Notes: generated by a model from the letters alone, not told the origin. DNA of 64,000 nt from Candidatus Spongiisociaceae bacterium (GCA_965202665.1 OZ241841.1:1696001-1760000), one strand, 5' to 3'. Positions 2 to 11,150 are shown, counted from the stretch's first letter. A program made the numbers and translations.

Positions 2-187
2 CAACAGGCATCTCACATCCTGTTTTCACCTCCGCCAGGCTCTTTGCCATCACCAGATGAACTTCGTAAGGAACTGGAACGTCTTGATTTGGAAGAGCAG
101 GGATGGGTGGAGGAATACGGGGAGGTTCCCCGCCGGTATTCTGCTCGTCCGAGACGGCAACGCCCTGATGGGAATGCGAGCAAATGA
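2..187 (+). CDS. 3' end of a hypothetical protein (partial, runs off window start)
   Basis: Open frame from position 2 (QQASHILFSPPPGSLPSPDELRKELERLDLEEQGW...ASK*). Its TGA overlaps the next ATG (ATGA at 184-187). Confidence 0.6.
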   Translation, partial: QQASHILFSPPPGSLPSPDELRKELERLDLEEQGWVEEYGEVPRRYSARPRRQRPDGNASK

Positions 188-1119
188 TTTTCGCAGGCAT
201 CCCGCGTACGAGAGGTGAATGGCCTGAAGGTGTGTTGGAGCACCTAGGTTCCTTCCGGCAGGGTGATGTTGTTGAAGGTTTTCCTATGTCTTATCTTGGG
301 AACCCGGATGTTCCCGTCCATGCGCAAACAGCGGCATATCTCGGCAAAGGTCCGGGAACGATCGAATTTGAGGAGGAGTTTCCGTATGGGATGATAACGA
401 CGCAGACTTGTGATATTATAGAGGAGGATAGTAAACAACCATCCCGGCCGTGGGTGCAAATGGTACCTGTTTACGATGGAGAGCATAAACACGAACCAAC
501 CACAGGTTCGACAAAACGACCTTCCTATATTCCTAGCAATTACCGAAGGTCTATAACGGAAGGCGGAGGCCCTCAGTATTTACTACGTTTGCAAGATTTT
601 CCCCGGGAAGGGTTTTGGGTTGCTGATCTGCGTTTGAGCATTTCCGTAGATAAGGGATGGTTGCTGGGACGCGATCCTATCAGGGTTTTTGGATCTGAGG
701 AAAGTCGCAGGATAGTCGGTAGCAGATTAGCGATGCTCGTAGACCGCCCAGCATTCGACGGAAAGTTTGAGCGGGCGGTAAGGAGACCATTAGCAAAAGA
801 ACTAGCTTCTCTAGAGAACACTCTACTTGGACAAGATATTTATCAGCAAGTGGCAGAATTTAGGATAAGGGCTGATGACAATATTAATATGGAGAGAGTT
901 GAGATATGGGTTTTTTCTGATTCGCCTTTGTCTGAAAATGTGCGAAGGTGGTTCGATGAACAGGCGGACCAGTGGAGGAGAAGGGCAGGTGAGGAGGATC
1001 TTGTTCTTCTCCCAACACAATATAGTCAGCTTGACGAAGTTAGTGCCAAAGAGTATCGTTCGCTAACCATGATGTCTTTACTTGATTTAACGCCCAATCC
1101 GCCCTGGTACCAAAACTGA
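184..1119 (+). CDS. Hypothetical protein with ITTQTCDI motif, accessory-region type
   Basis: 311 aa ORF coupled to the upstream gene. FRQGDV...GMITTQTCDI...WVQMVPV pattern; lower GC than backbone. Confidence 0.75.
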   Translation: MIFAGIPRTRGEWPEGVLEHLGSFRQGDVVEGFPMSYLGNPDVPVHAQTAAYLGKGPGTIEFEEEFPYGMITTQTCDIIEEDSKQPSRPWVQMVPVYDGEHKHEPTTGSTKRPSYIPSNYRRSITEGGGPQYLLRLQDFPREGFWVADLRLSISVDKGWLLGRDPIRVFGSEESRRIVGSRLAMLVDRPAFDGKFERAVRRPLAKELASLENTLLGQDIYQQVAEFRIRADDNINMERVEIWVFSDSPLSENVRRWFDEQADQWRRRAGEEDLVLLPTQYSQLDEVSAKEYRSLTMMSLLDLTPNPPWYQN

Positions 1120-1421: not shown

Positions 1422-2111
1422 GTGATGGAGCAAAACCGAGATGAGCGGGAGAGTGCCGCGGCTGGGATCAGTTCGCGTATCAGCTCCGAGGATGAGAGGC
1501 GTCGGTTGGATGCGATCATAAAGGATTACGACCGACGCAAGGCGACGGTTCGTCGGGTGCTAGAGGATGTGCTGGCTACGGAATGCGCAAGTCAGGACGG
1601 GCCGCTAACGGAGATGCTGTCGGAGGGGTACAGGGAGCAGACCGGCAAGACGGTGGAGATTGCAATGGTGTCCGACTTTCTGTCCGAAATTTCCGACCAG
1701 TTGTCCCTTCCCAAGAACCCAAAGAAGAAGCCCCCGCCCCCAAAGAAGCCCAAGAAGCCCAGGAAGCAGAGCCCGCGGCCTAAAGTGGTGGTCGGACCAG
1801 ACGGTGAAGAACGGGCGGTGCCCTACGGTTGGGCGGGGGCGTTTCGCGCCATTGCCCAAGAGATCGCCACCGACTATCCCGGTCAGGAGGATATTTGGGG
1901 GAGCCTGCCTTTCATCATGCCCAAACATCTTCTACCAGACTATGTGAAAGATATCGCTGCCAATGTCGAAGTCGTTCCGGGGCTGTGGTTGAACACCCAC
2001 GGCAGCGCCGAGGCGGTGCTACGCAATATGCATATGATGCTGGAGGCCTTTGGTTACCCGCCCCATCAATGGCGGTTGCGACTCAACGACGGCACTTGGC
2101 TGAAACTCTAA
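1422..2111 (+). CDS. Hypothetical protein with Lys/Pro linker and SeqA-like C-terminal domain
   Basis: GAGGAGG RBS. Helical N-terminus, PKNPKKKPPPPKKPKK linker, C-terminal VPGLWLNTHGSAEAVLRNMHMMLEAFGYP resembling the SeqA C-domain pattern. Confidence 0.6.
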   Translation: MMEQNRDERESAAAGISSRISSEDERRRLDAIIKDYDRRKATVRRVLEDVLATECASQDGPLTEMLSEGYREQTGKTVEIAMVSDFLSEISDQLSLPKNPKKKPPPPKKPKKPRKQSPRPKVVVGPDGEERAVPYGWAGAFRAIAQEIATDYPGQEDIWGSLPFIMPKHLLPDYVKDIAANVEVVPGLWLNTHGSAEAVLRNMHMMLEAFGYPPHQWRLRLNDGTWLKL

Positions 2112-2608: not shown

Positions 2609-3169
2609 ATGGAACAAAAGTCTAGGTGGCATGTTTGGTTGGGTGTTATTGTTATGATAGTACTGTTGGGTATCGTAACGTTATTCATCATTATTGTCAC
2701 CAAAAATTTTCAACTAGAAACCCTACTTGTTTTTTTTGCGGGTTCGTTTCCTTCTCTGATATACTGGTCAGCTCAAAGACGTAAGGAAAAACAAGAAAGA
2801 GAAAATTGGATTTTACGAGATAAGAAAGCTTATCTTATAGAATTAGTAAGTATATTTGATTCGTTTATCCAAGATAAAGGTAGTGATGAAGCAAAACAGA
2901 GAAAATTATTAAAAAGATTCAAGTCTTTTCGACCTGCTCTTTTGATATGGGGGTCGCCTCCGGTGATCAAAGTGTGGAATGAACAAAAAGATATTTCTGG
3001 TGATTCTATGGAGGGTATCCGGCAGGCAGAAAAATTATTTAGAGCAATTCGGAAAGAATTAGATCACGATGATTCTCAATTACCACCTGGCGCGATTGTA
3101 GCAACACTTGTAAAACCTGAGGAAAAGAAAAAAGTTTACGAAGCTTGTAAAGATGAAAAAAATCATTAG
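2609..3169 (+). CDS. AT-rich membrane-anchored hypothetical protein (two N-terminal TM segments)
   Basis: AAGGAG RBS, TATGCT -10-like hexamer, two hydrophobic stretches followed by a helical soluble region. Confidence 0.75.
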   Translation: MEQKSRWHVWLGVIVMIVLLGIVTLFIIIVTKNFQLETLLVFFAGSFPSLIYWSAQRRKEKQERENWILRDKKAYLIELVSIFDSFIQDKGSDEAKQRKLLKRFKSFRPALLIWGSPPVIKVWNEQKDISGDSMEGIRQAEKLFRAIRKELDHDDSQLPPGAIVATLVKPEEKKKVYEACKDEKNH

Positions 3170-3180
3170 ATATTGATTTT

Positions 3181-3573
3181 TCAAATGTTTGGTGTGGTGG
3201 CTTTGGATAGTTTTTTGTCTAGGGTGGCTAGTTGGGCTTGGCGGCGGTGGGCGGTTTCCAGGTAGGCGGCGTCGTAGCCGCTTAGGTTGTGTTGGCGGGC
3301 CAAGGCTACTGTGTTGGCGTCATCTTGATCGTGGTCGGTGATTAGGGGGAGGGAGCGGAGGCGGTTGAGGTAGGCCTCGGCGGAACCTGCCTCGATGCGG
3401 CCTTTCCGTTCGGCTCCCACAAGCACGTTGCGTATCTCGTGCCAGAACAGGTCTGGGACTATGGCGGGTTCGCTATATATTCGGGCTATCACCTCGTCTG
3501 CTTCGGCGGTGCCCGGTCGGTCGCGGAAGCACCAGGTGGCTGCTATTGACGCATCAGCAACTATGGTCGTCAG
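3181..3573 (-). CDS. vapC: VapC-family PIN-domain ribonuclease toxin
   Basis: Frame extends upstream of the called ORF to give TIVADASIAATWCF (PIN strand 1 Asp), then WHEIRNVL, LSGYDAAYL and LATLD. Probable CTG start overlapping the Res stop (CTGA), with GAGGGA RBS. Confidence 0.85.
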   Translation of the reverse strand: MTTIVADASIAATWCFRDRPGTAEADEVIARIYSEPAIVPDLFWHEIRNVLVGAERKGRIEAGSAEAYLNRLRSLPLITDHDQDDANTVALARQHNLSGYDAAYLETAHRRQAQLATLDKKLSKATTPNI

Positions 3574-6413
3574 GCACGTCCCTCGTCTCGTGCTTCAAGA
3601 ATTTCTTCTAAAGACATTGTGGTTTCCCGGTTATCGCGTTCGGTGAACATTTCATTTTTGATTATGTCCAAAATCAAAGACCGGAGCGTACCTAACTCGG
3701 GGTGGAACTGGTTTTGGTTTACTCTTATGTATTTCCAGGGCGTATCGGTGGCGGTGCTCACCTTACGGCACCAGTCTTGCATCGCGGCGTCTTTTTGTTC
3801 TGTTCCCTCCCAGACTCGCCCTTTGGTTTCGATAATCCAGTTCAACTCGCCTGCTTCCGTATCTTGGACGACCACCCAATCCGGATGGTAGAAGCCGATG
3901 GCTCCGCTCGGTTTCAGATAATTTACCCGGAAGGCGGTTCCAGACCCGCCCTGCTCTGTTGTCCCAAGTGCGGCGAAGCGCAGAACATCCTCTGCCTGGT
4001 CAAGAAACTCCGCAAACCTACGCTCAAAAGGGTTGTAGGTGGCTACAAAATTGAATATTGTTTTTCTCGCTTCTAAAAGAGGTAGATCTCGTCTCCAGCT
4101 GAAAGATGGGGTGTCGGAGAGGTGATTATCTAGATTCTCGAATTCAATGCGACGACGCTCTACGGTCAGCGTGCCTATTTGAGAAGCCAAATATTTCGAT
4201 ATAGCTTCTTGTAATTCTGACCTGGACAAGTGGGAACTAGTGTTTTGATCGTTCAGATCGATCGTTCTGCCAAAGCAACGTTCTCTAACATAATCCTGTA
4301 CTGTTGGATATAATTCGTGGAACTGACCGCTCAAACCCGTTTGTTTAGCAACCTTTTGTGTAATACTTGATAGAAGTTCTTTTACAGAAACGGTGGATTC
4401 CACGGCTATATTTGCTTGGTGAACCTCGGTTTCAGTGGTGGCAAACTCCATTCGCAATCTTATTCGGTAGCGTTCGTCCAAATCTTCCTGTTGAAAGATG
4501 GGATCGAGTAAAGTTAGATCCAGGTTGGAAAGGTCTCGTAGATTATGATACATATCCGGTTTAGTTATAGGAATGTTTATATCATATTCCATCTTCTCTT
4601 GTAATGGTGCTATTTTCACTGGAAGGGGCGGGGGTTTTTTAGTAACGGTTACGCTCACTCCCTCGGTCTCTAGTTGTTCGCGTAAGAATCTGAGCAAATT
4701 TGGCGTACCTAAAACTTCTAATGTTTGCGTGCGATCGGGGCCTATCTGGGGCATCAACCGGAGGCCCCGACCTATCACCTGCTCTGGTAATATTTCAGCT
4801 TTGGCTGTGAAAGGTCGCAGACCGAGAACCACGGACACATTTCTTACATCCCATCCTTCGCGTAACATCATAACGCTTACGATAACCTTTATTTTGTTTG
4901 TGTCCTTATCAATATCGCGAGCCGCCTGACGGGCCTTATCAACATCTCCTTTACGTACCTCTCCAGTGTTATCAGTGTGGATAATCAACACTTCTGACTC
5001 TTTGAATCCATATTCAGGGCTAGAATACAGTGCTTGGCCTATTGCATCTGCGTAGGCGTTTTTCTCGGCCATGATGAACAAAACTGGTCTTACATTCAAG
5101 GCATTGTATGACTGGTAATGTTCTTTCCAGCGTTCAGTAGCACTTCTCAGCCAGTGGCCGTATTTTTCTACAACATCTTCTTTTGTTACTCTAGTGGGTT
5201 CGTGGGCGGGTTTTTCAGGACTGTCCTGATCCACTATTATCGGGGCTTTTACTATTCTGTCCTCCACGGCTTGGGCGAGAGGGTAGTCACAGACGGTCCA
5301 AGGAAAGAACATACCGTTTTGGTCTTTGGGCGTGGCGGAAAAATCCAGCCAAAGACTAACACCGTTTGGTAGTGCTTGGTTAATGGAAAGAAGAGATCTG
5401 CTCCAAGCCAAGTCTTCGTCATGAACATGATGGGCTTCATCGTTGATAATAACAAGGTCATTTAGCAACTTTATTCGTTCCATCATAGAACGTTGGCCGG
5501 AGGTAGCGATACCCGATGCGGGCTTGCCAAGTAATGCTTCTACGGCGTTGCTTGGAGTCCACTCCTGGTCACGCGACTCATAGAGTTGATGAATGTTGGT
5601 CAGGAAGAGATTACCGGAAGGATCGGGTTCGGTGGACTCTCCACGTAGAATGACCCTTTGTGAGAATACCCTTTTTAGTTCCGGTGGTATCAAAGGTAAC
5701 TCGTGAAATATTTGGTTGTTGGCAAAATCTTTTTCCAGTCTTTGATACACGATGACATTTGGGGCTACTATTAGAAAGTTAGTGGAAAGATTGGAGTCGG
5801 GCACCAGACGGCTGTGGAGATGAGACCAAACTATAGTCATAGCCATCACCCAAGTTTTTCCCGAACCCGTCGCCATTTTGAAAGCAAAACGACGTAAGTC
5901 TTTAGGTGGTAAATCTTGTGCCCCAAAATCGCTGCGTTCTGGTATGTAGCGGCGGACTTGTCGTTTCCCATCCGTAGTAGTTTGGAAAGATAAATTGCTT
6001 TCAGTGAGAGTATCCATATAAAAGGTGTGGTATTTTTGTATCAGATTCTTTGCATCGCGTTGGTTTGCTATTTCCACGAGCCAGGCTAAAGTGTCGATAG
6101 CCTCGCGTTGGCAAAAGTGATAGCGGAAAGGAACTTCAAAATTTTGCACTTCGTGGTCTTCCTCGAACCAATATTCAAACAGACGTTTGGTTACATCGGA
6201 GGCTCCCTGGTAGCCGCTACTGCGCCAAGCATCCACCGCCTCACGGATTTTGGGAACTAAAAAGATAGGGCTAGGTCGACGCCCGGAGGTTTCCTCGCGC
6301 CAACCTGTTGACGCTGTTTCGTCTTTGACCAGGTAGGAAACAGGCTCAACCCAAGGAAGACGACCTTGGATCCCCGGCAGTTGCTTGTCGTAGGGAATTA
6401 CTGGTTCAGACAT
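3570..6413 (-). CDS. res: Type III restriction enzyme Res subunit (SF2 helicase + PD-(D/E)xK nuclease) with extra C-terminal tail
   Basis: MATGSGKT, INDEAHH, SATP, LREGWD, QVIGRGLR helicase motifs; HPDWVV...IETKG nuclease motif; directly follows mod (TAATG overlap). Confidence 0.92.
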   Translation of the reverse strand: MSEPVIPYDKQLPGIQGRLPWVEPVSYLVKDETASTGWREETSGRRPSPIFLVPKIREAVDAWRSSGYQGASDVTKRLFEYWFEEDHEVQNFEVPFRYHFCQREAIDTLAWLVEIANQRDAKNLIQKYHTFYMDTLTESNLSFQTTTDGKRQVRRYIPERSDFGAQDLPPKDLRRFAFKMATGSGKTWVMAMTIVWSHLHSRLVPDSNLSTNFLIVAPNVIVYQRLEKDFANNQIFHELPLIPPELKRVFSQRVILRGESTEPDPSGNLFLTNIHQLYESRDQEWTPSNAVEALLGKPASGIATSGQRSMMERIKLLNDLVIINDEAHHVHDEDLAWSRSLLSINQALPNGVSLWLDFSATPKDQNGMFFPWTVCDYPLAQAVEDRIVKAPIIVDQDSPEKPAHEPTRVTKEDVVEKYGHWLRSATERWKEHYQSYNALNVRPVLFIMAEKNAYADAIGQALYSSPEYGFKESEVLIIHTDNTGEVRKGDVDKARQAARDIDKDTNKIKVIVSVMMLREGWDVRNVSVVLGLRPFTAKAEILPEQVIGRGLRLMPQIGPDRTQTLEVLGTPNLLRFLREQLETEGVSVTVTKKPPPLPVKIAPLQEKMEYDINIPITKPDMYHNLRDLSNLDLTLLDPIFQQEDLDERYRIRLRMEFATTETEVHQANIAVESTVSVKELLSSITQKVAKQTGLSGQFHELYPTVQDYVRERCFGRTIDLNDQNTSSHLSRSELQEAISKYLASQIGTLTVERRRIEFENLDNHLSDTPSFSWRRDLPLLEARKTIFNFVATYNPFERRFAEFLDQAEDVLRFAALGTTEQGGSGTAFRVNYLKPSGAIGFYHPDWVVVQDTEAGELNWIIETKGRVWEGTEQKDAAMQDWCRKVSTATDTPWKYIRVNQNQFHPELGTLRSLILDIIKNEMFTERDNRETTMSLEEILEARDEGRA

Positions 6414-8292
6414 TAACCGACCTCAATGTCAAAACCCTGAGTAGTATCGTTACCAAAAACATCTATCACTTTGACCAGAATACGATATACACCAGGGGTC
6501 TCGTATGTGTGGGTGTCTGTTTCGAGGCGGAGGGTTCGGTCCTTACGGGTCCGGTAATCCACCCATCCTTGTATAAAGGTGTCATTTTGGAAGTTCCAAT
6601 CGACAGACCAGTAGTCAATGTAATCTGACCATTCCTTTATTTTACCCCGTATATCATCAGGGATGAGCTCCGAATTTGGGATGACGAAATCCTTCAAGAT
6701 TATCTTTATAGAAAGAACATCGGATTTTTGGATATCGGTTTCAAGATATGCTAATTCAAAGAATTGTATATCGTCTTTGTCAACGGCTTGTTGTTCCATA
6801 ATCTCACGCGGTATCTGGAATAGTAATAATTTGATTCCTTTTTCTTTAGCCACACTGTGCATGAGTCCCCCCCCCGTATATTGTTATTAGGTCCGGCCAG
6901 TCCCATTTCCCACTCCCATCCCAAAACATGAAGCTCTTGTTGGTTTAAGTGAGCACATTCATTGAGTGCTTGATCTATTTCGGTTATAGTGATGGGAGCA
7001 TCAACTGACCCAATGTAAACTAATGCTTTATCTTTCTTGCCATGTAGGCACTCTAAGCCAGGAACAGGTTGCGCTCCATACAATTTCATCACAAACGAAT
7101 AGTATTCGTATATACGATGTTCAATAACTATCGGATTCCTTGACTCATAAAAGGCAGAATCTTGCCAGTATTGTCGTTCGTATTTGCCGAGATTAAGTAT
7201 TTCAAAGGGTTTACATTCTTCAATACCTAGTAACCGCTTTCGGGTAATATGAATACTCCAGCGTCCAAGATCGCAACCAATCCATCTTCTGTTTAGTTTT
7301 TCCGATACCGCGAGTGTGGTGCCTGCGCCGCAAAAAAAATCAGCAATAAGATCATCAGGATTTGATGACGCTTTTATTATCCGTGCTAACACACTTTCGT
7401 TCTTTTGAGTTTGGTAGCCTGTTTTTTCTTGGGAAAAACTCTTGATCTGAATAGAGTCTAGTGATTGATTTCCTTTTAAGGCGAATTCATGAGAATTGGC
7501 ATTCCAAACATCCTCAATAGGGTATCCGTTGCCTTTGGTTTGATCGTTTCCTCTACGTTGGTAATCATCAGAGTAAGGTATGTATTCTTTGTTGAATTTA
7601 AAGTAACCAGGTGTCTTTACATAAAAGAGAATTGTATCGTGATTACGAATCCAGTTTTTGGCTCTAGATTTATAACCAGATATCCAACCTATCCTCCATA
7701 TTATTTCCCTTTGAAAACTGCGCATTCCAAATATTTCATCCATCATAACCTTTACATAGTGACCTACGTTGGCATCAAGATGAACATATATTGCCCCACT
7801 ATCTTTTAGTAGTTCTCGCATTATAGATAGCCGTGATCTCACCATATCAAGATAGCTCTCTATACCCTCCTTCCAAGTATCTCTATAAGCTTTTTCCTCG
7901 ATAATAGAAGGTTCTTTTGTTGTTTGTATATCCGTATCGCCCAGTTCTGCTTTAAAAGAAAAATCCAAGCCTGTGGCGAATGGAGGATCGATATATATGA
8001 GATCAATTTTGCCAGCAAATCTTTCCAGTAGCGAGCTCATTACTAGCAGGTTGTCGCCCCAGATTAGTTTGTTTTTCCAGCCTTCTTCGAAGGTGTCGCC
8101 TTCGTTGCCTTGGTAGACATCGAATAGGGACATCCCTTTGGTTTGCTGTGTTTCGCGGGTGGCGCGGCTTTCGTTGACGGTCTCTATGACCTGGAAGGGC
8201 AGGCTGACGCGGGGCACCTCTTTCAGGGTGCCGTCTTCGTTGTATTTACCGGGCCAGACCAGCTCGGTTTTGGCGATTTCTATTTTGGTCAT
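6413..8292 (-). CDS. mod: Type III N6-adenine DNA methyltransferase Mod, frameshifted at a G9 tract (pieces 6751..8292 and 6413..6862)
   Basis: NKLIWGDNL, YIDPPF, QKNESVLARII and DFFCGAGTT (beta-class order). The C-terminal piece has DYIDYWSVDW and VKVIDVFGND. Adding one G joins the frames as ...NIRGGGLMHSVAKEKG. Confidence 0.88.
6867..6875 (-). repeat. G9 homopolymer at the mod frameshift
   Basis: Nine consecutive C on the + strand, exactly where the two mod frames switch. Confidence 0.9.
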
Positions 8293-11150
8293 CCTGTTTC
8301 TCCGATGATGCCGTCCGTACGGCACAGCCTCCGCAGGTCGCATTCTTGGCAGATATCCGCTTCGGGCGGGGCGGACACTGCGAACTCGCCCGCCTGGATG
8401 CGCCGCACGGTGGCGTCGAAATGGCGGCCGGCCTCCTCTACCCGCTCCGGTCTGTATGGTAGCGCCATCAGCGCATCCTGCTTGCGTTGCTCCGAAGTCC
8501 AGTAGAGCAACAGTCGATCCACCCGCTTGCCCCGCCGTTGCTCCAAGATGTGGGCGTAGGTGCAGAGTTGCCGTTCGTAGGCCTCTATCAGATTCGGGTT
8601 GTCTTTGGGGCGGGGCGAAGTCTTGAAATCCAGCAGCTCCAATTTGCCGTCCCCGCCCATCAACAGGTCCACCTTGCCGGACAGGATGTAGTCGTCCTTC
8701 TCCAAAGACACATCCACCTCGGTTTCGATGATGCGGCCCATCTCGTCTTGGTTTTGCCGGAAATAGTTCATCACCTGTCGGAACGCGGCCTCTTTGACCA
8801 CCCCGCTGATGGGCCGCCGGTCGGACAGGCTCAGGACTCGGAAGTTGTCTTCGAACAGGTCGCTGATGCGGTTCTCGTCGAGGGAGTCCAGTTGGCCGTC
8901 CATGGCGAAGCGGTGGATGCCCTCGATGGACTGGTGGACGAGCTGGCCGAAAAAGAAGACCGCCGACCGGGACGGGGTGAAGTCGTATTCCCGGAAGAAC
9001 TGATACTGGCGCGGGCAGGTTTCGTAGACTTTGAGGTCGCCGGTGAAACTGTAGGTTTTTTTGACGGGCGTCCGTTCATGCGAGGCAAAACGCTGGGCGG
9101 CCAGCTTATCCTTCTCCGCGTACGGCCACTGGGGGAGGCCCTCCCAGATGGCGGCGAAGTGTTTCTTGGGCGTTTTGTGGGCGGTTAGGACCAGCACATT
9201 CTGCGCTCTGGAAAAGGCCACGTAGTGTTGGCGCATCCGGTCAAAATTGGTTATGCGGTCTTCGGGTTCAAAAGGCGGACGGTGATAGAACGGGGCCAAG
9301 TTGCGGTCAATTTGCTTGCCGGTGGGAATCTGCGCCGACAGGGAGCCGACCGCCACCACCGGAAACTCCAAGCCCTTGGACTGATGGATGGTCATCACTT
9401 GCACGTAACCTTTCGGGAACGGCTGATCCGGGTCCTCGTATTCGTTGATGCCTCCCGAATGAAGCAGGCGCAGGAAACTGTTGAAAAAACTGCGGGGCAG
9501 AGACTCCCGGTTGTCGTAGGTGATAACCGGGTAGCCGTAGAAAACCTGAAAAGCGTTGAGAAGCTGGGAGAAGATGGCCAGGTTGCAGGCCGTGTTTTCA
9601 TCTTTGGCCGCGCTCCGGAACGGTTCCAAGGCGAGCAGGCGGTAGAAGTAGTCGGTAGGACGCAGGTCGAGGGTCTGCCTTTTCTCCAGGGCGGCGATTT
9701 CGTCCGTCCACCGGCGGAGGGCCCGGGCGAGCGGGCTGGACTTTTCGAACTGCTGACAGAGTTGAAGGATGGCCTCATCCGCATATCGGGCCAGTTTTTT
9801 GAGCGCCCATCCCGAAACCGGATCCCGTTGGTCGCCGTACCAGCCGAGCAGGATTGCGTAACAGGCCACCAGGTTGCGGATGGCGGGAATATCAAAGAAG
9901 CCCCGGGCGCGGGGGCAGAAAGCGGGGATGCCCCTGGCTTGCAAGGCTTCCAGATAGTGACCGCTGTGCTTCTCGCGGACGCTGTGCAACAGGAGGGCCA
10001 CCTGGCTGTAATCCTCAATCACCTGATTTTTTTTCAGAAACTCCACCAGATCGGCGAATCGTTCAGCCTCGTCCTGGACGCCGGTTCCCCATATGCTGAT
10101 GACGGCCGGGTAGTTGGAGCGGTCTCCGTTCGGGTTGGCGACGATGGTTTTGTCGTAACGGAAGGAGTGGCCGGCCGAGTTGGACCAGTCCGCCGAGGAC
10201 ATCCAATCGTCGTAGCGTTCCACTATGGCGGGATGCGAGCGGTAGTTGGAAGTCAACTTGATGACCCGGCAGTCGGACACCCGCTGGGGGAACTCCAAGA
10301 TGTTGCGCACCGTGGCCCCCCGGAAGCGGTATATGCTCTGGTCCTCGTCACCCACCACGCACAGGTTCTGGTCGGGCCCCGCCAGTTTGAGGAGCAACTG
10401 TTCCTGGATGAAGTTGGTGTCCTGGTATTCGTCCACTAGCAGGTAGCGGAGATGGGGGGAAACCGAGTCGGCGGCGGCTGGGTCGTTCAGCAGGTCGTAG
10501 AAATGTCGTTGCAGGTGGGCGAAATCGACGCGGTTTTTGTTCAACAGGGCCTTTTGATAACTGAGGTAGGCGGAGCCGATGGCCCTGATGAAAGAGTCGT
10601 CCGAGTTCGTCATCAGGTTCGGATCGACCAGTTCTTCGGTTATTTTGTCAAAATACCCTCTCGCCCTTTCGATGGCCGTCCAGCGGGTTGTCCAACGGGT
10701 CAGATAGCGGCCGTCCTCATCTTTTTCTCCGATGATGTCGTCGAAATGTTCGAAGATGAACAACAGTTGGGTCAGCTCGTCCAAGGTTTGGTAGCCGTGC
10801 CCGAGGTTCGTCCGGTGGCGGTGACGGGTCAGGGCCCGGTTGCAAAATCCGTGGATGGTGGAGATGGTCAGGTCGGACAGGTCCTCCTTGTAACCCAGCT
10901 GGCTGGCGTAGGCGGCCAGACGGTCCCGCATTTCGTAGGCGGCTTTCTCGGTGAAAGTGCACAACGCCATCTCTTTCGGTTCCGCCTTCTTCAACAGCAA
11001 CAGGTTCAAGGCCCGCAGGACGATGCTGTAGGTTTTGCCGGAGCCGGGGCCGGCTATCACCAGGAGCGGGCCGTCCAGATGGCCGATGACCTCCTGCTGG
11101 CTGGGGTTTAGTTGCAGGTTGTGCTCCACAATTGCGGGAGCGATGGTCAT
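8289..11150 (-). CDS. UvrD/Rep SF1 helicase fused to C-terminal PD-(D/E)xK nuclease with 4-Cys (Fe-S staple) pattern
   Basis: AGPGSGKT, VDEYQD, GDEDQSIYRFRGA, TIHQSKGLEF, YVAFSRA; then YETCPRQY, GKVDLL, LDFKTS, YERQL and CQECDLRRLC. Confidence 0.92.
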   Translation of the reverse strand: MTIAPAIVEHNLQLNPSQQEVIGHLDGPLLVIAGPGSGKTYSIVLRALNLLLLKKAEPKEMALCTFTEKAAYEMRDRLAAYASQLGYKEDLSDLTISTIHGFCNRALTRHRHRTNLGHGYQTLDELTQLLFIFEHFDDIIGEKDEDGRYLTRWTTRWTAIERARGYFDKITEELVDPNLMTNSDDSFIRAIGSAYLSYQKALLNKNRVDFAHLQRHFYDLLNDPAAADSVSPHLRYLLVDEYQDTNFIQEQLLLKLAGPDQNLCVVGDEDQSIYRFRGATVRNILEFPQRVSDCRVIKLTSNYRSHPAIVERYDDWMSSADWSNSAGHSFRYDKTIVANPNGDRSNYPAVISIWGTGVQDEAERFADLVEFLKKNQVIEDYSQVALLLHSVREKHSGHYLEALQARGIPAFCPRARGFFDIPAIRNLVACYAILLGWYGDQRDPVSGWALKKLARYADEAILQLCQQFEKSSPLARALRRWTDEIAALEKRQTLDLRPTDYFYRLLALEPFRSAAKDENTACNLAIFSQLLNAFQVFYGYPVITYDNRESLPRSFFNSFLRLLHSGGINEYEDPDQPFPKGYVQVMTIHQSKGLEFPVVAVGSLSAQIPTGKQIDRNLAPFYHRPPFEPEDRITNFDRMRQHYVAFSRAQNVLVLTAHKTPKKHFAAIWEGLPQWPYAEKDKLAAQRFASHERTPVKKTYSFTGDLKVYETCPRQYQFFREYDFTPSRSAVFFFGQLVHQSIEGIHRFAMDGQLDSLDENRISDLFEDNFRVLSLSDRRPISGVVKEAAFRQVMNYFRQNQDEMGRIIETEVDVSLEKDDYILSGKVDLLMGGDGKLELLDFKTSPRPKDNPNLIEAYERQLCTYAHILEQRRGKRVDRLLLYWTSEQRKQDALMALPYRPERVEEAGRHFDATVRRIQAGEFAVSAPPEADICQECDLRRLCRTDGIIGETG

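What the first reader, a model, noticed from the sequence alone, without database searches (positions are those of the whole stretch)
3181..3700. Type III Res subunit ends in a VapB-like antitoxin tail coupled to a VapC toxin: possible toxin guarded by the restriction enzyme
Seen: after the nuclease domain ends (WKYIRVNQ...TLRSL), Res continues about 30 aa as IIKNEMFTERDNRETTMSLEEILEARDEGRA. Its stop overlaps the start of an intact PIN gene, and there is no separate vapB. Known: antitoxins preceding this VapC subtype often end in an E-I/L-x-x-x-R-D/E-E-G-R-like helix, and PrrC is a precedent for a toxin held inactive by an R-M complex. Inference: Res itself may be the antitoxin. Loss, degradation or phage inhibition of the restriction enzyme would then release an RNase (abortive-infection backup, or addiction to the R-M locus). 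A neutral deletion-fusion of an old vapB is the alternative.
Basis: partly seen in the sequence, partly recalled or inferred. Interest (0 to 1): 0.85.

Follow-up and report, generated by a model that had tools for sequence, protein, structure and literature searches.

The report
Restriction enzyme carrying an antitoxin tail
A restriction-enzyme subunit in a sponge-associated bacterium ends in a short tail homologous to the toxin-binding end of an antitoxin; the tail likely keeps the RNase toxin gene next door in check, as in about 30 other species, but here that toxin gene has lost its start codon and is probably silent.

Summary
Res (3570..6413, minus strand, 947 aa) runs about 22 residues past the usual C-terminus of its family. 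No vapB lies between it and the PIN frame. That frame keeps all four catalytic acids but has no ATG/GTG/TTG: relatives read TGATG at the junction, the window reads TGACG.

The antitoxin reading is well supported. A profile of Res tails alone matches the C-termini of free-standing Phd/YefM antitoxins (hhalign 96.9%, E 1.7e-10). Of 76 complete Res relatives, 28 carry the tail and 25 of those are followed by this PIN. None of the 48 without the tail is. Tail divergence tracks the PIN (partial r 0.77), not the Res core (-0.10). Two further fusions use a different antitoxin tail and PIN subtype (L018; L146/L148). Where the R-M genes are deleted, the tail persists in frame (L003 and several proteins).

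Binding was not tested because the complex predictor was unavailable. The guard (abortive-infection) role is untested. In this lineage vapC looks dead: ACG is shared with a second sample, and two other samples carry an 18-nt deletion removing the catalytic Asp. I found no published description. I rate it a new variant of a known kind, interest 0.78.

The parts
8289..11150 (-). UvrD-like helicase-nuclease gene upstream of mod (neighbour; membership in the system not shown)
   Evidence: PADLOC GajB/UvrD-type helicase hits. The homologous gene lies upstream of mod in 23 of the Res loci fetched, 9 with the tail and 14 without. L087 has a short hit next to mod, L006 a fragment, and L096/L097 a distant copy downstream.
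6751..8343 (-). mod, 5' part (530-aa ORF): Type III-like N6/N4 DNA methyltransferase, frame broken at a G9 run
   Evidence: Pfam N6_N4_Mtase 4e-44. The intact orthologue in L036 is one 626-aa ORF that matches PADLOC MTase_III at 1.8e-123.
6867..6875 (-). G9 homopolymer in mod that splits the frame; G10 would restore it
   Evidence: Sequence. Run X6 has 8 extra letters at this run. L074 has G13 at the same site and is also out of frame. 71 of 73 other loci are in frame without a long run.
6413..6862 (-). mod, 3' part (149-aa ORF); its stop overlaps the res start (TAATG)
3570..6413 (-). res: SF2 helicase + C-terminal endonuclease, Type III-like, related to the BPTD_3080 family
   Evidence: Pfam ResIII and RE_endonuc. 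NCBIfam NF046055 at 280 bits, below its cut-off of 800. PADLOC REase_III 1.2e-17.
3573..3662 (-). Res C-terminal tail (last 30 residues, DIIKNEMFTERDNRETTMSLEEILEARDEGRA), antitoxin-derived
   Evidence: Alignments A1 and A4. hhalign of Res tails against free antitoxins: 96.9%, E 1.7e-10 over the last 24 residues. Extra length relative to tail-less Res.
3181..3573 (-). vapC (PIN) frame, 130 codons read from CTG; start codon lost (ACG at 3570-3568 where relatives have ATG); catalytic residues intact
   Evidence: Strain variants.

Best explanation
The Res subunit of this Type III-like restriction-modification operon ends in a ~30-residue tail that is homologous to the toxin-binding C-terminus of Phd/YefM antitoxins. 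The tail likely binds and neutralises the VapC (PIN) RNase encoded immediately downstream, so Res itself would be the antitoxin.

Shown:
- The tail is an add-on to the Res family.
- It is homologous to antitoxin C-termini.
- It occurs with this vapC in 25 of 28 tail-bearing species, and with none of the 48 that lack it.
- It diverges with the toxin, not with the enzyme core.
- It has been grafted onto Res enzymes at least three times.
- It is retained in frame when the R-M genes are deleted.

Inferred:
- In relatives, vapC is made by translational coupling. The stop/start distance ranges from a 14-nt overlap to a 5-nt gap, and is T(G/A)ATG in 16 of 25. This would tie toxin supply to Res supply.
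- The tail occupies the VapC active-site groove, as VapB tails do.
- Losing the 3' end of res or its expression frees the RNase. The pair would therefore act as an addiction module riding on the R-M operon, and possibly as a back-up if Res is destroyed.

In this genome the toxin half is probably dead or nearly silent, because ATG has become ACG. Sister strains carry an 18-nt deletion that removes the catalytic Asp. The mod gene is out of frame at a G9 run.
For: (1) Extra tail: 46-51 residues after the W-x-Y-x-RVNQ motif in 28 tail-bearing Res, against a median of 25 in 48 others. The window Res matches the NCBIfam BPTD_3080 model only up to residue 899.

(2) Homology to antitoxins. Free-standing genes in front of more distant relatives of this PIN (L007, L009, L010, L011) are PhdYeFM by Pfam (4.2e-10 to 3.6e-15) and end ...RVSAAEIRAARDQGRA and similar. 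A profile of Res tails alone matches a profile of free antitoxins C-terminus to C-terminus (hhalign 96.9%, E 1.7e-10, 24 columns). A tail profile searched against 1.84 billion proteins gave 55 hits, nearly all of them at the extreme C-terminus. Of the 54 scanned with Pfam, 19 are PhdYeFM and 1 is MazE/AbrB.

(3) Association. Of 76 complete Res relatives, 28 have the tail and 25 of these have the PIN. Of the 48 without this tail, none has this PIN.

(4) Protein-level constraint: E-G-R is invariant in 26 of 26 tails with 2, 4 and 4 synonymous codons.

(5) Tail identity tracks PIN identity (r 0.80; partial r 0.77 given the Res core; 0 of 2000 permutations reach it) and not the Res core (partial r -0.10). 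L084 carries the tail+PIN of one clade on the Res core of another.

(6) Independent fusions. L018 has the same Res family with a different tail (...PRPSLKELLLAPNPRTDELAPP...) and a different PIN (Pfam 5e-12). That tail matches the ends of the roughly 85-95-aa antitoxins of that PIN subtype, two of which were confirmed as PhdYeFM. L146 and L148 are true BPTD_3080 Res (1342 bits for L146; 27% identical to the window Res) with a ...DFKELLAAAPLEGIDL... tail and a PIN.

(7) Deletion scars keep the tail. In L003 about 3.3 kb of mod-res is gone, but a 70-aa ORF with the tail and an intact ATG-started PIN remain. P0001 and P0002 are the Mod N-terminus joined to the tail. P0039 is a Mod N-terminus joined to the Res C-terminal third. 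P0005 and P0008 are a RadC-like N-terminus joined to the tail. P0009 is a nucleotidyltransferase N-terminus joined to the tail. P0004 is a 70-aa tail protein. The one locus that lost the tail (L006) also lost the first 13 PIN residues.

(8) The PIN is otherwise under purifying selection: dN/dS 0.21 between the window and L002.
Against: - Binding of tail to VapC was not tested. The complex predictor was never available.
- In the window vapC has no canonical start. Related strains have lost the catalytic Asp codon. Whatever the module does elsewhere, it may do nothing here.
- Three tail-bearing Res have no PIN (L049, L058, L070). Four PINs appear frameshifted or damaged (L021, L052, L083, L086).
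- The tail lies next to vapC, so the tail-PIN correlation could come from shared recombination tracts alone.
- Part of the free-antitoxin alignment A5 was gathered with a profile that included Res tails. L007, L010 and L011 were found independently.
- The genomic context of the chimeric proteins (P0001 and the others) could not be seen, so I do not know whether vapC follows them.
- Many loci are long-read MAGs, in which homopolymer errors can mimic frameshifts.
Confidence: 0.8

Rival explanations
1. Guardian or abortive-infection reading. Res holds VapC latent. A phage anti-restriction factor, proteolysis, or loss of Res would release the RNase and abort infection, as PrrC is released from EcoprrI. 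This concerns the biological role and builds on the binding model rather than replacing it.
For: The architecture gives a direct physical route from Res to the toxin. The 2025 review PMC12707154 (passages read) names PrrC and PARIS as established R-M guardians, so the logic has precedent. The locus sits beside other defence-type genes (UvrD/GajB-like helicase).
Against: No phage trigger, no anti-Type III factor and no expression data are known here. The tail survives as small proteins once the R-M genes are deleted, which shows the pair persists without a working enzyme to guard. 7 of 28 tail loci have a broken or lost PIN, and so does the window, which suggests weak selection on the toxin.
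Confidence: 0.3
2. Neutral relic. A deletion once fused the 3' end of a vapB to res, and the tail is carried along without function.
For: Fusions by deletion clearly happen at this locus (P0001, P0005, P0009, P0039). The toxin is often decayed.
Against: Tails are only 23-71% identical to the window's, yet E-G-R is invariant in 26 of 26 through synonymous change. The tail is present in 28 of 76 species-level loci across at least six phyla. There are three independent fusions. The tail motif degenerates where the PIN is gone (L070 ...ARCQDRT; L037).
Confidence: 0.06
3. Recruitment, not inhibition. The tail docks an active PIN nuclease onto the restriction complex as an accessory effector, for example an RNase or flap nuclease acting on invaders.
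For: PIN genes coupled to R-M subunits without recognisable antitoxins were noted before for Type I systems (PMC5499597, section 17 read). Stoichiometric coupling to Res would suit a subunit.
Against: The tail is homologous to the segment that free-standing antitoxins of the same PIN subtype use. The tail persists as a 70-94-aa protein without the enzyme, which fits neutralisation better than recruitment.
Confidence: 0.07
4. The conserved 3' end of res is constrained at the nucleotide level as the ribosome-binding site and coupling signal of vapC (GAGG within the D-E-G-R codons), not as a protein motif.
For: GA(G/A)GG lies 8-10 nt before the vapC start in most junctions.
Against: Codons vary freely at E (GAG/GAA), G (four codons) and R (CGN and AGA) while the residues stay fixed. 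The motif is also kept in L049 and L058, where no vapC follows. Homology extends over 24 residues.
Confidence: 0.03

Closest known systems
VapBC type II toxin-antitoxin pairs with Phd/YefM-type antitoxins
   Same: The toxin is a PIN domain with the four conserved acidic residues. The neutralising segment is the antitoxin's C-terminal ~25-30 residues, homologous between free antitoxins and the Res tail. The antitoxin gene precedes the toxin with an overlapping stop/start.
   Different: The Phd DNA-binding and dimerisation domain is absent. It is replaced by a 900-residue helicase-nuclease. There can therefore be no antitoxin-mediated autoregulation of the classical kind, and expression depends on the mod-res operon. 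Whether the carrier is labile, as antitoxins are, is unknown.
PrrC / EcoprrI (anticodon nuclease kept latent by a Type Ic R-M enzyme) and other 'R-M guardian' systems such as PARIS
   Same: An RNase toxin gene sits inside or beside an R-M operon, and the R-M protein is proposed to hold it inactive (PMC12707154, passages read).
   Different: PrrC is a separate protein with its own ABC-ATPase-like regulatory domain and no antitoxin homology (recalled, not from a call). Here the inhibitory element is a recognisable antitoxin peptide fused to the restriction subunit. The toxin is a VapC and the enzyme is Type III-like. No trigger is known.
PIN genes linked to Type I R-M operons (Matelska et al. 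2017, PMC5499597, section 17)
   Same: PIN toxins transcriptionally coupled to R-M subunits, sometimes with no antitoxin gene in sight (section read).
   Different: That paper reports Type I contexts, says the arrangements are not conserved between close species, and states that direct TA-RM interaction 'has not been shown yet'. It describes no fused antitoxin segment. Here the arrangement is conserved across phyla and the antitoxin segment is identified.
Fused or chimeric antitoxins (for example CapRel SJ46, HicAB fusions)
   Same: The neutralising module is part of a larger polypeptide with another job (10.1101/2023.12.08.570793, passages read).
   Different: In those cases toxin and antitoxin are fused to each other. 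Here the antitoxin peptide is fused to an unrelated defence enzyme and the toxin stays separate.
Type III R-M systems with phase-variable mod genes (phasevarions; recalled, not from a call)
   Same: mod-res order, overlapping genes, and a homopolymer tract inside mod that varies between strains.
   Different: Phase variation is not demonstrated here. The G9 run could be an assembly error. A downstream toxin coupled to res is not part of that paradigm.

Membership tests
Type III restriction-modification system | Mod: N6/N4 DNA methyltransferase of the Type III kind, encoded just upstream of res | tested here: met
   Pfam N6_N4_Mtase 4e-44 on the window's 530-aa part. The intact orthologue L036 matches PADLOC MTase_III over its full length at 1.8e-123. 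The mod stop overlaps the res start. In the window the frame is broken at a G9 run.
Type III restriction-modification system | Res: SF2 helicase motifs plus a C-terminal endonuclease domain | tested here: met
   Pfam ResIII 4.1e-17; RE_endonuc 20 bits, just under the 23.4 cut-off; relative P0026 scores 26 bits. PADLOC REase_III 1.2e-17. NCBIfam BPTD_3080 at 280 bits is below the equivalog cut-off of 800, so this is a related family, not that family.
Type III restriction-modification system | ATP-dependent cleavage that needs Mod and inversely oriented unmethylated sites | not testable with these tools
   Biochemical property. No assay was possible.
VapC (PIN-domain type II toxin) | PIN fold with four conserved acidic residues | tested here: met
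   Pfam PIN 5.5e-12. D7, E46, D101 and D119 are invariant in 24 sequences including the window. The closest solved chains are the PIN proteins PAE0151 and PAE2754.
VapC (PIN-domain type II toxin) | A translatable gene (start codon) placed after its antitoxin | tested here: not met
   In the window there is no ATG/GTG/TTG before the first catalytic Asp; it reads CTG ACG where relatives have CTG ATG. The feature is met in 21 of the 28 tail-bearing relatives (intact ORF with ATG or GTG) and in L003 and L004.
VapC (PIN-domain type II toxin) | Toxicity (RNase activity) relieved by the cognate antitoxin | not testable with these tools
   Needs expression and rescue assays.
Phd/YefM antitoxin | N-terminal Phd/YefM DNA-binding and dimerisation domain (PF02604) | tested here: not met
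   No PF02604 match in Res. The free-standing counterparts have it. Res is therefore not a member of the family; only its tail is homologous to the family's C-terminal segment.
Phd/YefM antitoxin | C-terminal toxin-binding segment matched to the toxin subtype | tested here: met
   hhalign 96.9%, E 1.7e-10, aligned end to end. Alignments A1 and A4. Tail identity tracks PIN identity.
Phd/YefM antitoxin | Physical binding and neutralisation of the toxin | not tested
   The complex predictor and the structure predictor were unavailable, and no experiment was possible.
R-M guardian (PrrC-like) systems | Toxin activated when the R-M enzyme is inhibited by a phage factor | not testable with these tools
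   No trigger is known. This is inference only.

The most novel reading that the evidence does not exclude
A restriction enzyme is itself the antitoxin. Type III-like Res subunits physically hold a VapC RNase through a grafted antitoxin peptide, so destruction, inhibition or loss of the enzyme releases the toxin. That would be a built-in guardian and addiction device. It has been assembled at least three times from different Res families and different VapBC subtypes, and it has spread horizontally among sponge-associated bacteria of many phyla.
Probability: 0.3. Interest if true: 0.9.

Novelty: new variant of a known kind. Interest (0 to 1): 0.78.

Why it matters
R-M systems and toxin-antitoxin pairs are known to cluster. 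The 2017 PIN survey stated that a direct molecular link between them 'has not been shown yet' (PMC5499597, section 17). Here the link is written into the protein: the neutralising peptide of an antitoxin is part of the restriction subunit.

If binding is confirmed, three things follow:
- It gives a simple, testable mechanism by which a first-line defence enzyme and a suicide or addiction nuclease are wired together.
- It shows that antitoxin tails are portable modules that can be grafted onto large enzymes.
- It explains PIN genes that seem to lack an antitoxin next to R-M genes.

The natural deletion series (full Res, a Mod-tail chimera, a 70-aa tail protein) is a ready-made set of constructs. 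For annotation, it warns that 'orphan' vapC genes after res genes are not orphans, and that short ORFs ending in ...RDEGR(A/R) may be relics of restriction genes.

Tried and rejected
- Complex prediction (tail alignment A3 with PIN alignment A2) was never accepted. The queue was full, and the calls in between were not sent on. There is no verdict on binding.
- I considered folding the tail and PIN of L018 as one chain by reading its stop codon through. I did not do it, because a genetic code may be named only to test how an organism reads its DNA.
- The IQ-TREE run of the Res core did not finish in 300 s, so FastTree was used instead.
- Context of the chimeric proteins was not found. P0002 and P0005 in genome contigs gave nothing, or only the radC-like neighbour of L050. 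P0001 in metagenome contigs gave nothing. P0039 in metagenome contigs returned 80 ordinary Res loci, none with this PIN.
- The look-up of sequencing runs listed no RNA holder, so nothing can be said about expression.
- In one search, runs X6, X9 and X11 did not lay on the 201-base stretch, so the start-codon state of those strains is unknown. The list of differences is cut, so X4 and X6 cannot be read at 3568-3573.
- The 295-nt skip in one X3 contig is only a weak hint. It was found at min_likeness 90 with a short side of 32 letters.
- The search of earlier findings returned nothing.
- A programmed frameshift joining Res to VapC was considered and dropped. The PIN frame is -1 relative to Res, but there is no slippery sequence at ...GGA CGT GCC TGA.
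- A sponge cyanobacterium was my first guess for the host and was wrong. The genome is in the same genus as L002, labelled Candidatus Spongiisociaceae (Acidimicrobiia).
Full report
**What is in the window.** Four genes lie head to tail on the minus strand.
- A UvrD-like helicase-nuclease gene (8289..11150).
- A Type III-like mod, split into a 530-aa ORF (6751..8343) and a 149-aa ORF (6413..6862).
- res (3570..6413, 947 aa).
- A PIN-domain frame (3181..3573).

Res has the ResIII helicase domain (4.1e-17) and a C-terminal endonuclease domain. Its best curated match is the BPTD_3080 restriction-endonuclease family, but below that family's cut-off (280 against 800 bits). PADLOC calls it REase_III (1.2e-17). 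The intact Mod orthologue of L036 matches MTase_III at 1.8e-123. The mod stop and the res start overlap as TAATG.

**Checking the observation.** The PIN frame is real (Pfam 5.5e-12). Its domain begins at the fourth codon after the Res stop. It keeps the four acidic residues that are invariant in 24 aligned relatives (D7, E46, D101, D119).

It is not an intact gene, however. No ATG, GTG or TTG stands in frame before GTG at 3492, which lies beyond the first catalytic Asp. The junction reads GCC TGA CGA... In the PIN frame that is CTG ACG ACC ATA GTT GCT GAT. The closest relatives read CTG ATG at the same place. So the toxin's ATG is ACG here.

An identical contig of run X1, which may be the sample of origin, shows no difference across 3100-7000. 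A related strain from another study (X3) covers 3568-3573 without a difference. The change is therefore real and shared.

**The tail is an add-on.** A scan of species-representative genomes with the Res protein confirmed 133 relatives, of which the best 80 were kept. Four are cut by contig ends. Of the 76 with a complete C-terminus, 28 end in the motif ...(E/D)E(I/V/F)xx(A/W)(R/K)(D/E)EGRx and 48 do not.
- Tail-bearing proteins have 46-51 residues after the conserved W-x-Y/F-x-R-V/I-N/D-Q motif (median 47).
- The others have a median of 25 (range 15-61).
- The two longest of those others are L018 and L037, discussed below.

**The tail is homologous to antitoxin C-termini.** A scan with the PIN protein found 16 loci.
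- In L002, L004 and L005 the PIN follows a full-length Res with the tail.
- In L007, L009, L010 and L011, which hold more distant PINs (40-51% identity), it follows a 78-92-aa gene. That gene is a Phd/YefM antitoxin by Pfam and ends ...RVSAAEIRAARDQGRA...TTADEILAWRREGQR or ...VSIDEIIAWKNEGRR.

These ends align with the last ~30 residues of Res. A profile built only from Res tails (A3) matches a profile of free-standing antitoxins (A5) with hhalign probability 96.9% and E 1.7e-10. The match covers 24 columns and is anchored at both C-termini. One caveat applies: part of A5 was collected with a profile that contained Res tails.

A 32-column tail profile searched against 1.84 billion representative proteins gave 55 hits at E<=1e-3, and in nearly all of them the match is at the extreme C-terminus. 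Of the 54 scanned with Pfam, 19 are PhdYeFM and one is a MazE/AbrB antitoxin. Others are Res or Res fragments, a few are likely false hits (P0038, P0048), and many have no Pfam match at all.

In the window's own genome the motif occurs once, in Res (E 1.5e-14). The five Phd/YefM domains in the genome all lie far from the locus. There is no other candidate antitoxin.

**Tail and toxin go together.** Of the 28 tail-bearing Res, 25 are followed by a homologue of this PIN. Of the 48 without this tail, none is. The stop/start junction in those 25 loci is:
- T(G/A)ATG, a one-base overlap, in 16;
- ATGA in 2;
- a longer overlap in 3;
- a gap of 1-5 nt in 4.

This suggests translational coupling, which is an inference.

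Of the 28, 21 have an intact PIN ORF with ATG or GTG. Four look frameshifted or damaged (L021, L052, L083, L086). Three have no PIN. In L049 and L058 the tail is intact. In L070 only nine PIN codons remain and the tail motif has decayed to ...ARCQDRT. L037 sits beside a tail-bearing clade and has a degenerate tail-like end and no PIN.

E-G-R at positions -4 to -2 is invariant in 26 of 26 tails, although encoded by 2, 4 and 4 different codons. The constraint is therefore on the protein, not only on a ribosome-binding site.

**The tail evolves with the toxin, not with the enzyme.** Across 23 loci, pairwise identity of tails correlates with that of PINs (r 0.80) far better than with that of Res cores (r 0.34).
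- The partial correlation of tail with PIN, given the core, is 0.77 (0 of 2000 label permutations reach it).
- The partial correlation of tail with core, given the PIN, is -0.10.

In a FastTree of the Res core, 30 of 31 tail-bearing rows lie in one half of the tree (39 rows, support 98). The exception, L084, carries the tail and PIN of the L029/L073 type on a core that groups elsewhere. Physical linkage could produce such a pattern without interaction. It nevertheless shows that tail plus vapC move as one module.

**Independent fusions.**
- L018 belongs to the window's Res family (59% identity). It ends ...PRPSLKELLLAPNPRTDELAPPREPHSHRPPPEFE and is followed by a different PIN (Pfam 5e-12).
- I scanned with that PIN and examined 48 of the 80 loci kept. 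About 43 have a short upstream frame ending ...ARPSLKELLL..AR...L.PPRG..RRR. Two of these were tested and are PhdYeFM (1.9e-14 and 6.1e-15).
- In L146 and L148 the upstream gene is instead a ~1050-aa protein. L146 is a true BPTD_3080 restriction endonuclease (1342 bits) and is only 27% identical to the window's Res. Both end ...DFKE(L/M)LAAAPLEGIDL... directly before the PIN.

Antitoxin tails of two kinds have therefore been joined to Res enzymes of two families at least three times.

**Deletion derivatives keep the tail.**
- In L003 about 3.3 kb from within mod to near the end of res is missing, and the mod remnant is frameshifted. A 70-aa ORF (MQEWCRRV...RRARDEGRS) with a Shine-Dalgarno-like AAGGA upstream remains, and it overlaps an intact, ATG-started PIN.
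- P0001 and P0002 (93-94 aa) join the first 46 residues of Mod in frame to the last 47 of Res. They differ from each other at nine or more positions yet stay open.
- P0039 joins 24 Mod residues to the last third of Res.
- P0005 and P0008 join a RadC-like N-terminus to the last ~45 Res residues. A radC-like gene does lie upstream of the R-M operon in L050's genome.
- P0009 joins a nucleotidyltransferase N-terminus to the tail.
- P0004 is a 70-aa protein like that of L003.
- Conversely, in L006 Res is cut mid-gene, the tail is gone, and so are the first 13 PIN residues with the catalytic Asp.
- Among the 16 PIN loci, I saw no intact PIN without a tail-bearing gene or an antitoxin in front.

This is the pattern expected if losing the tail while keeping the toxin is lethal. 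I could not see what follows the chimeric proteins.

**State of the module in this lineage.** The genome is a 2.77-Mb single contig of the same genus as L002. That record is labelled Candidatus Spongiisociaceae (Acidimicrobiia). Public runs holding the stretch include sponge and marine metagenomes.

Besides the lost start codon, contigs of two further studies (X4, X6) carry an 18-nt deletion at 3543. It removes PIN codons 5-10 (VADASI), including the catalytic Asp. One X3 contig skips 295 nt of the PIN, which is only a weak hint. dN/dS between the window's PIN and L002's is 0.21, so constraint held for most of their divergence. I judge vapC here to be dead or nearly silent (about 70%). A weak CTG start through coupling cannot be excluded.

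mod is out of frame at a G9 run (6867-6875), and G10 would restore it. X6 shows eight more letters there. L074, of the same family, has G13 and is also out of frame. 71 of 73 other loci are in frame and have no long run. This is either a phase-variable tract or homopolymer error.

**Mechanism proposed.**
- Shown: the homology, the association and the module behaviour.
- Inferred: the tail binds the VapC active-site region as antitoxin tails do. VapC is made in step with Res by coupling. The pair punishes loss of the res 3' end or of its expression. Whether it also fires when a phage disables Res, in the manner of PrrC, is open.

**Literature.** Full-text searches found no description of a restriction subunit carrying an antitoxin segment.
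- The PIN survey PMC5499597 (section 17 read) reports PIN genes near Type I R-M genes and says a direct interaction has not been shown.
- The 2025 review PMC12707154 (passages read) lists PrrC and PARIS as R-M guardians and does not mention VapC.
- Supplements were not consulted. Supplementary Figure S7 of PMC5499597 might show related operons.

**Verdict.** The tail is a real feature conserved across the Res family. Its 'intact toxin' and 'guard' claims are, respectively, wrong for this genome and untested. I rate it a new variant of a known kind.

Noticed in passing
window 6867-6875 (minus strand, inside mod): A G9 homopolymer splits mod into 530-aa and 149-aa ORFs; G10 would give one ORF like L036's 626-aa Mod. 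Run X6 has 8 extra letters here. L074 (same bacterial family) has G13 at the homologous site and is also out of frame. This is either a possible phase-variable switch of the whole mod-res-vapC operon or long-read homopolymer error.
   Followed up: partly
window 8289-11150 (minus strand): A 953-aa UvrD/GajB-like helicase with a C-terminal nuclease-like part lies directly upstream of mod. The homologous gene is in the same place in 23 of the Res loci fetched, 9 with the tail and 14 without, so it may be a third component of this R-M family.
   Followed up: partly
window 3181-3600 versus 3600-8100: There is a sharp composition step. The PIN frame is about 60-64% G+C, while res and mod are about 35-50%. 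Synonymous divergence from L002 is 0.60 in the PIN but saturated in res. This suggests the enzyme genes and the tail/toxin end have different recombination histories.
   Followed up: partly
window 2609-3169 (plus strand): A very A+T-rich (27-41% G+C) 186-aa ORF converges on vapC. It has a hydrophobic N-terminal stretch and no Pfam or PADLOC match. Function unknown.
   Followed up: no
L002:3340-3470: The PIN of the sister genome reads into a different C-terminus (155 aa) after ...ATLDK, apparently through one base fewer in an A run than in the window. This is either decay or a homopolymer error.
   Followed up: no
L008:2186-3001 and protein P0015: A 214-aa protein with no Pfam match (a 272-codon open frame in L008) carries the same ...AAEIRAARDLGRP tail in front of a PIN. 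This is another non-canonical tail carrier.
   Followed up: no
L012-L017, upstream of the PIN: The most distant PIN relatives (29-36% identity) follow 85-88-aa proteins ending ...EVRRDRDRGH(D/E). L012's has no Pfam match. This looks like a further antitoxin type for this PIN clade.
   Followed up: no
L054:6777-7952 and L031:4646-5704; L090:6907-8109: Tail-less Res relatives are followed by other defence-type genes: DruA (5.7e-119) in L054, a nucleotidyltransferase/DruA-like gene in L031, and a Fic/DOC protein in L090. The position after res seems to be a hotspot for accessory modules.
   Followed up: no
window 184-1119 and 1422-2111 (plus strand): Two ORFs of 311 and 229 aa have no Pfam match. 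The second has a lysine/proline-rich low-complexity stretch.
   Followed up: no
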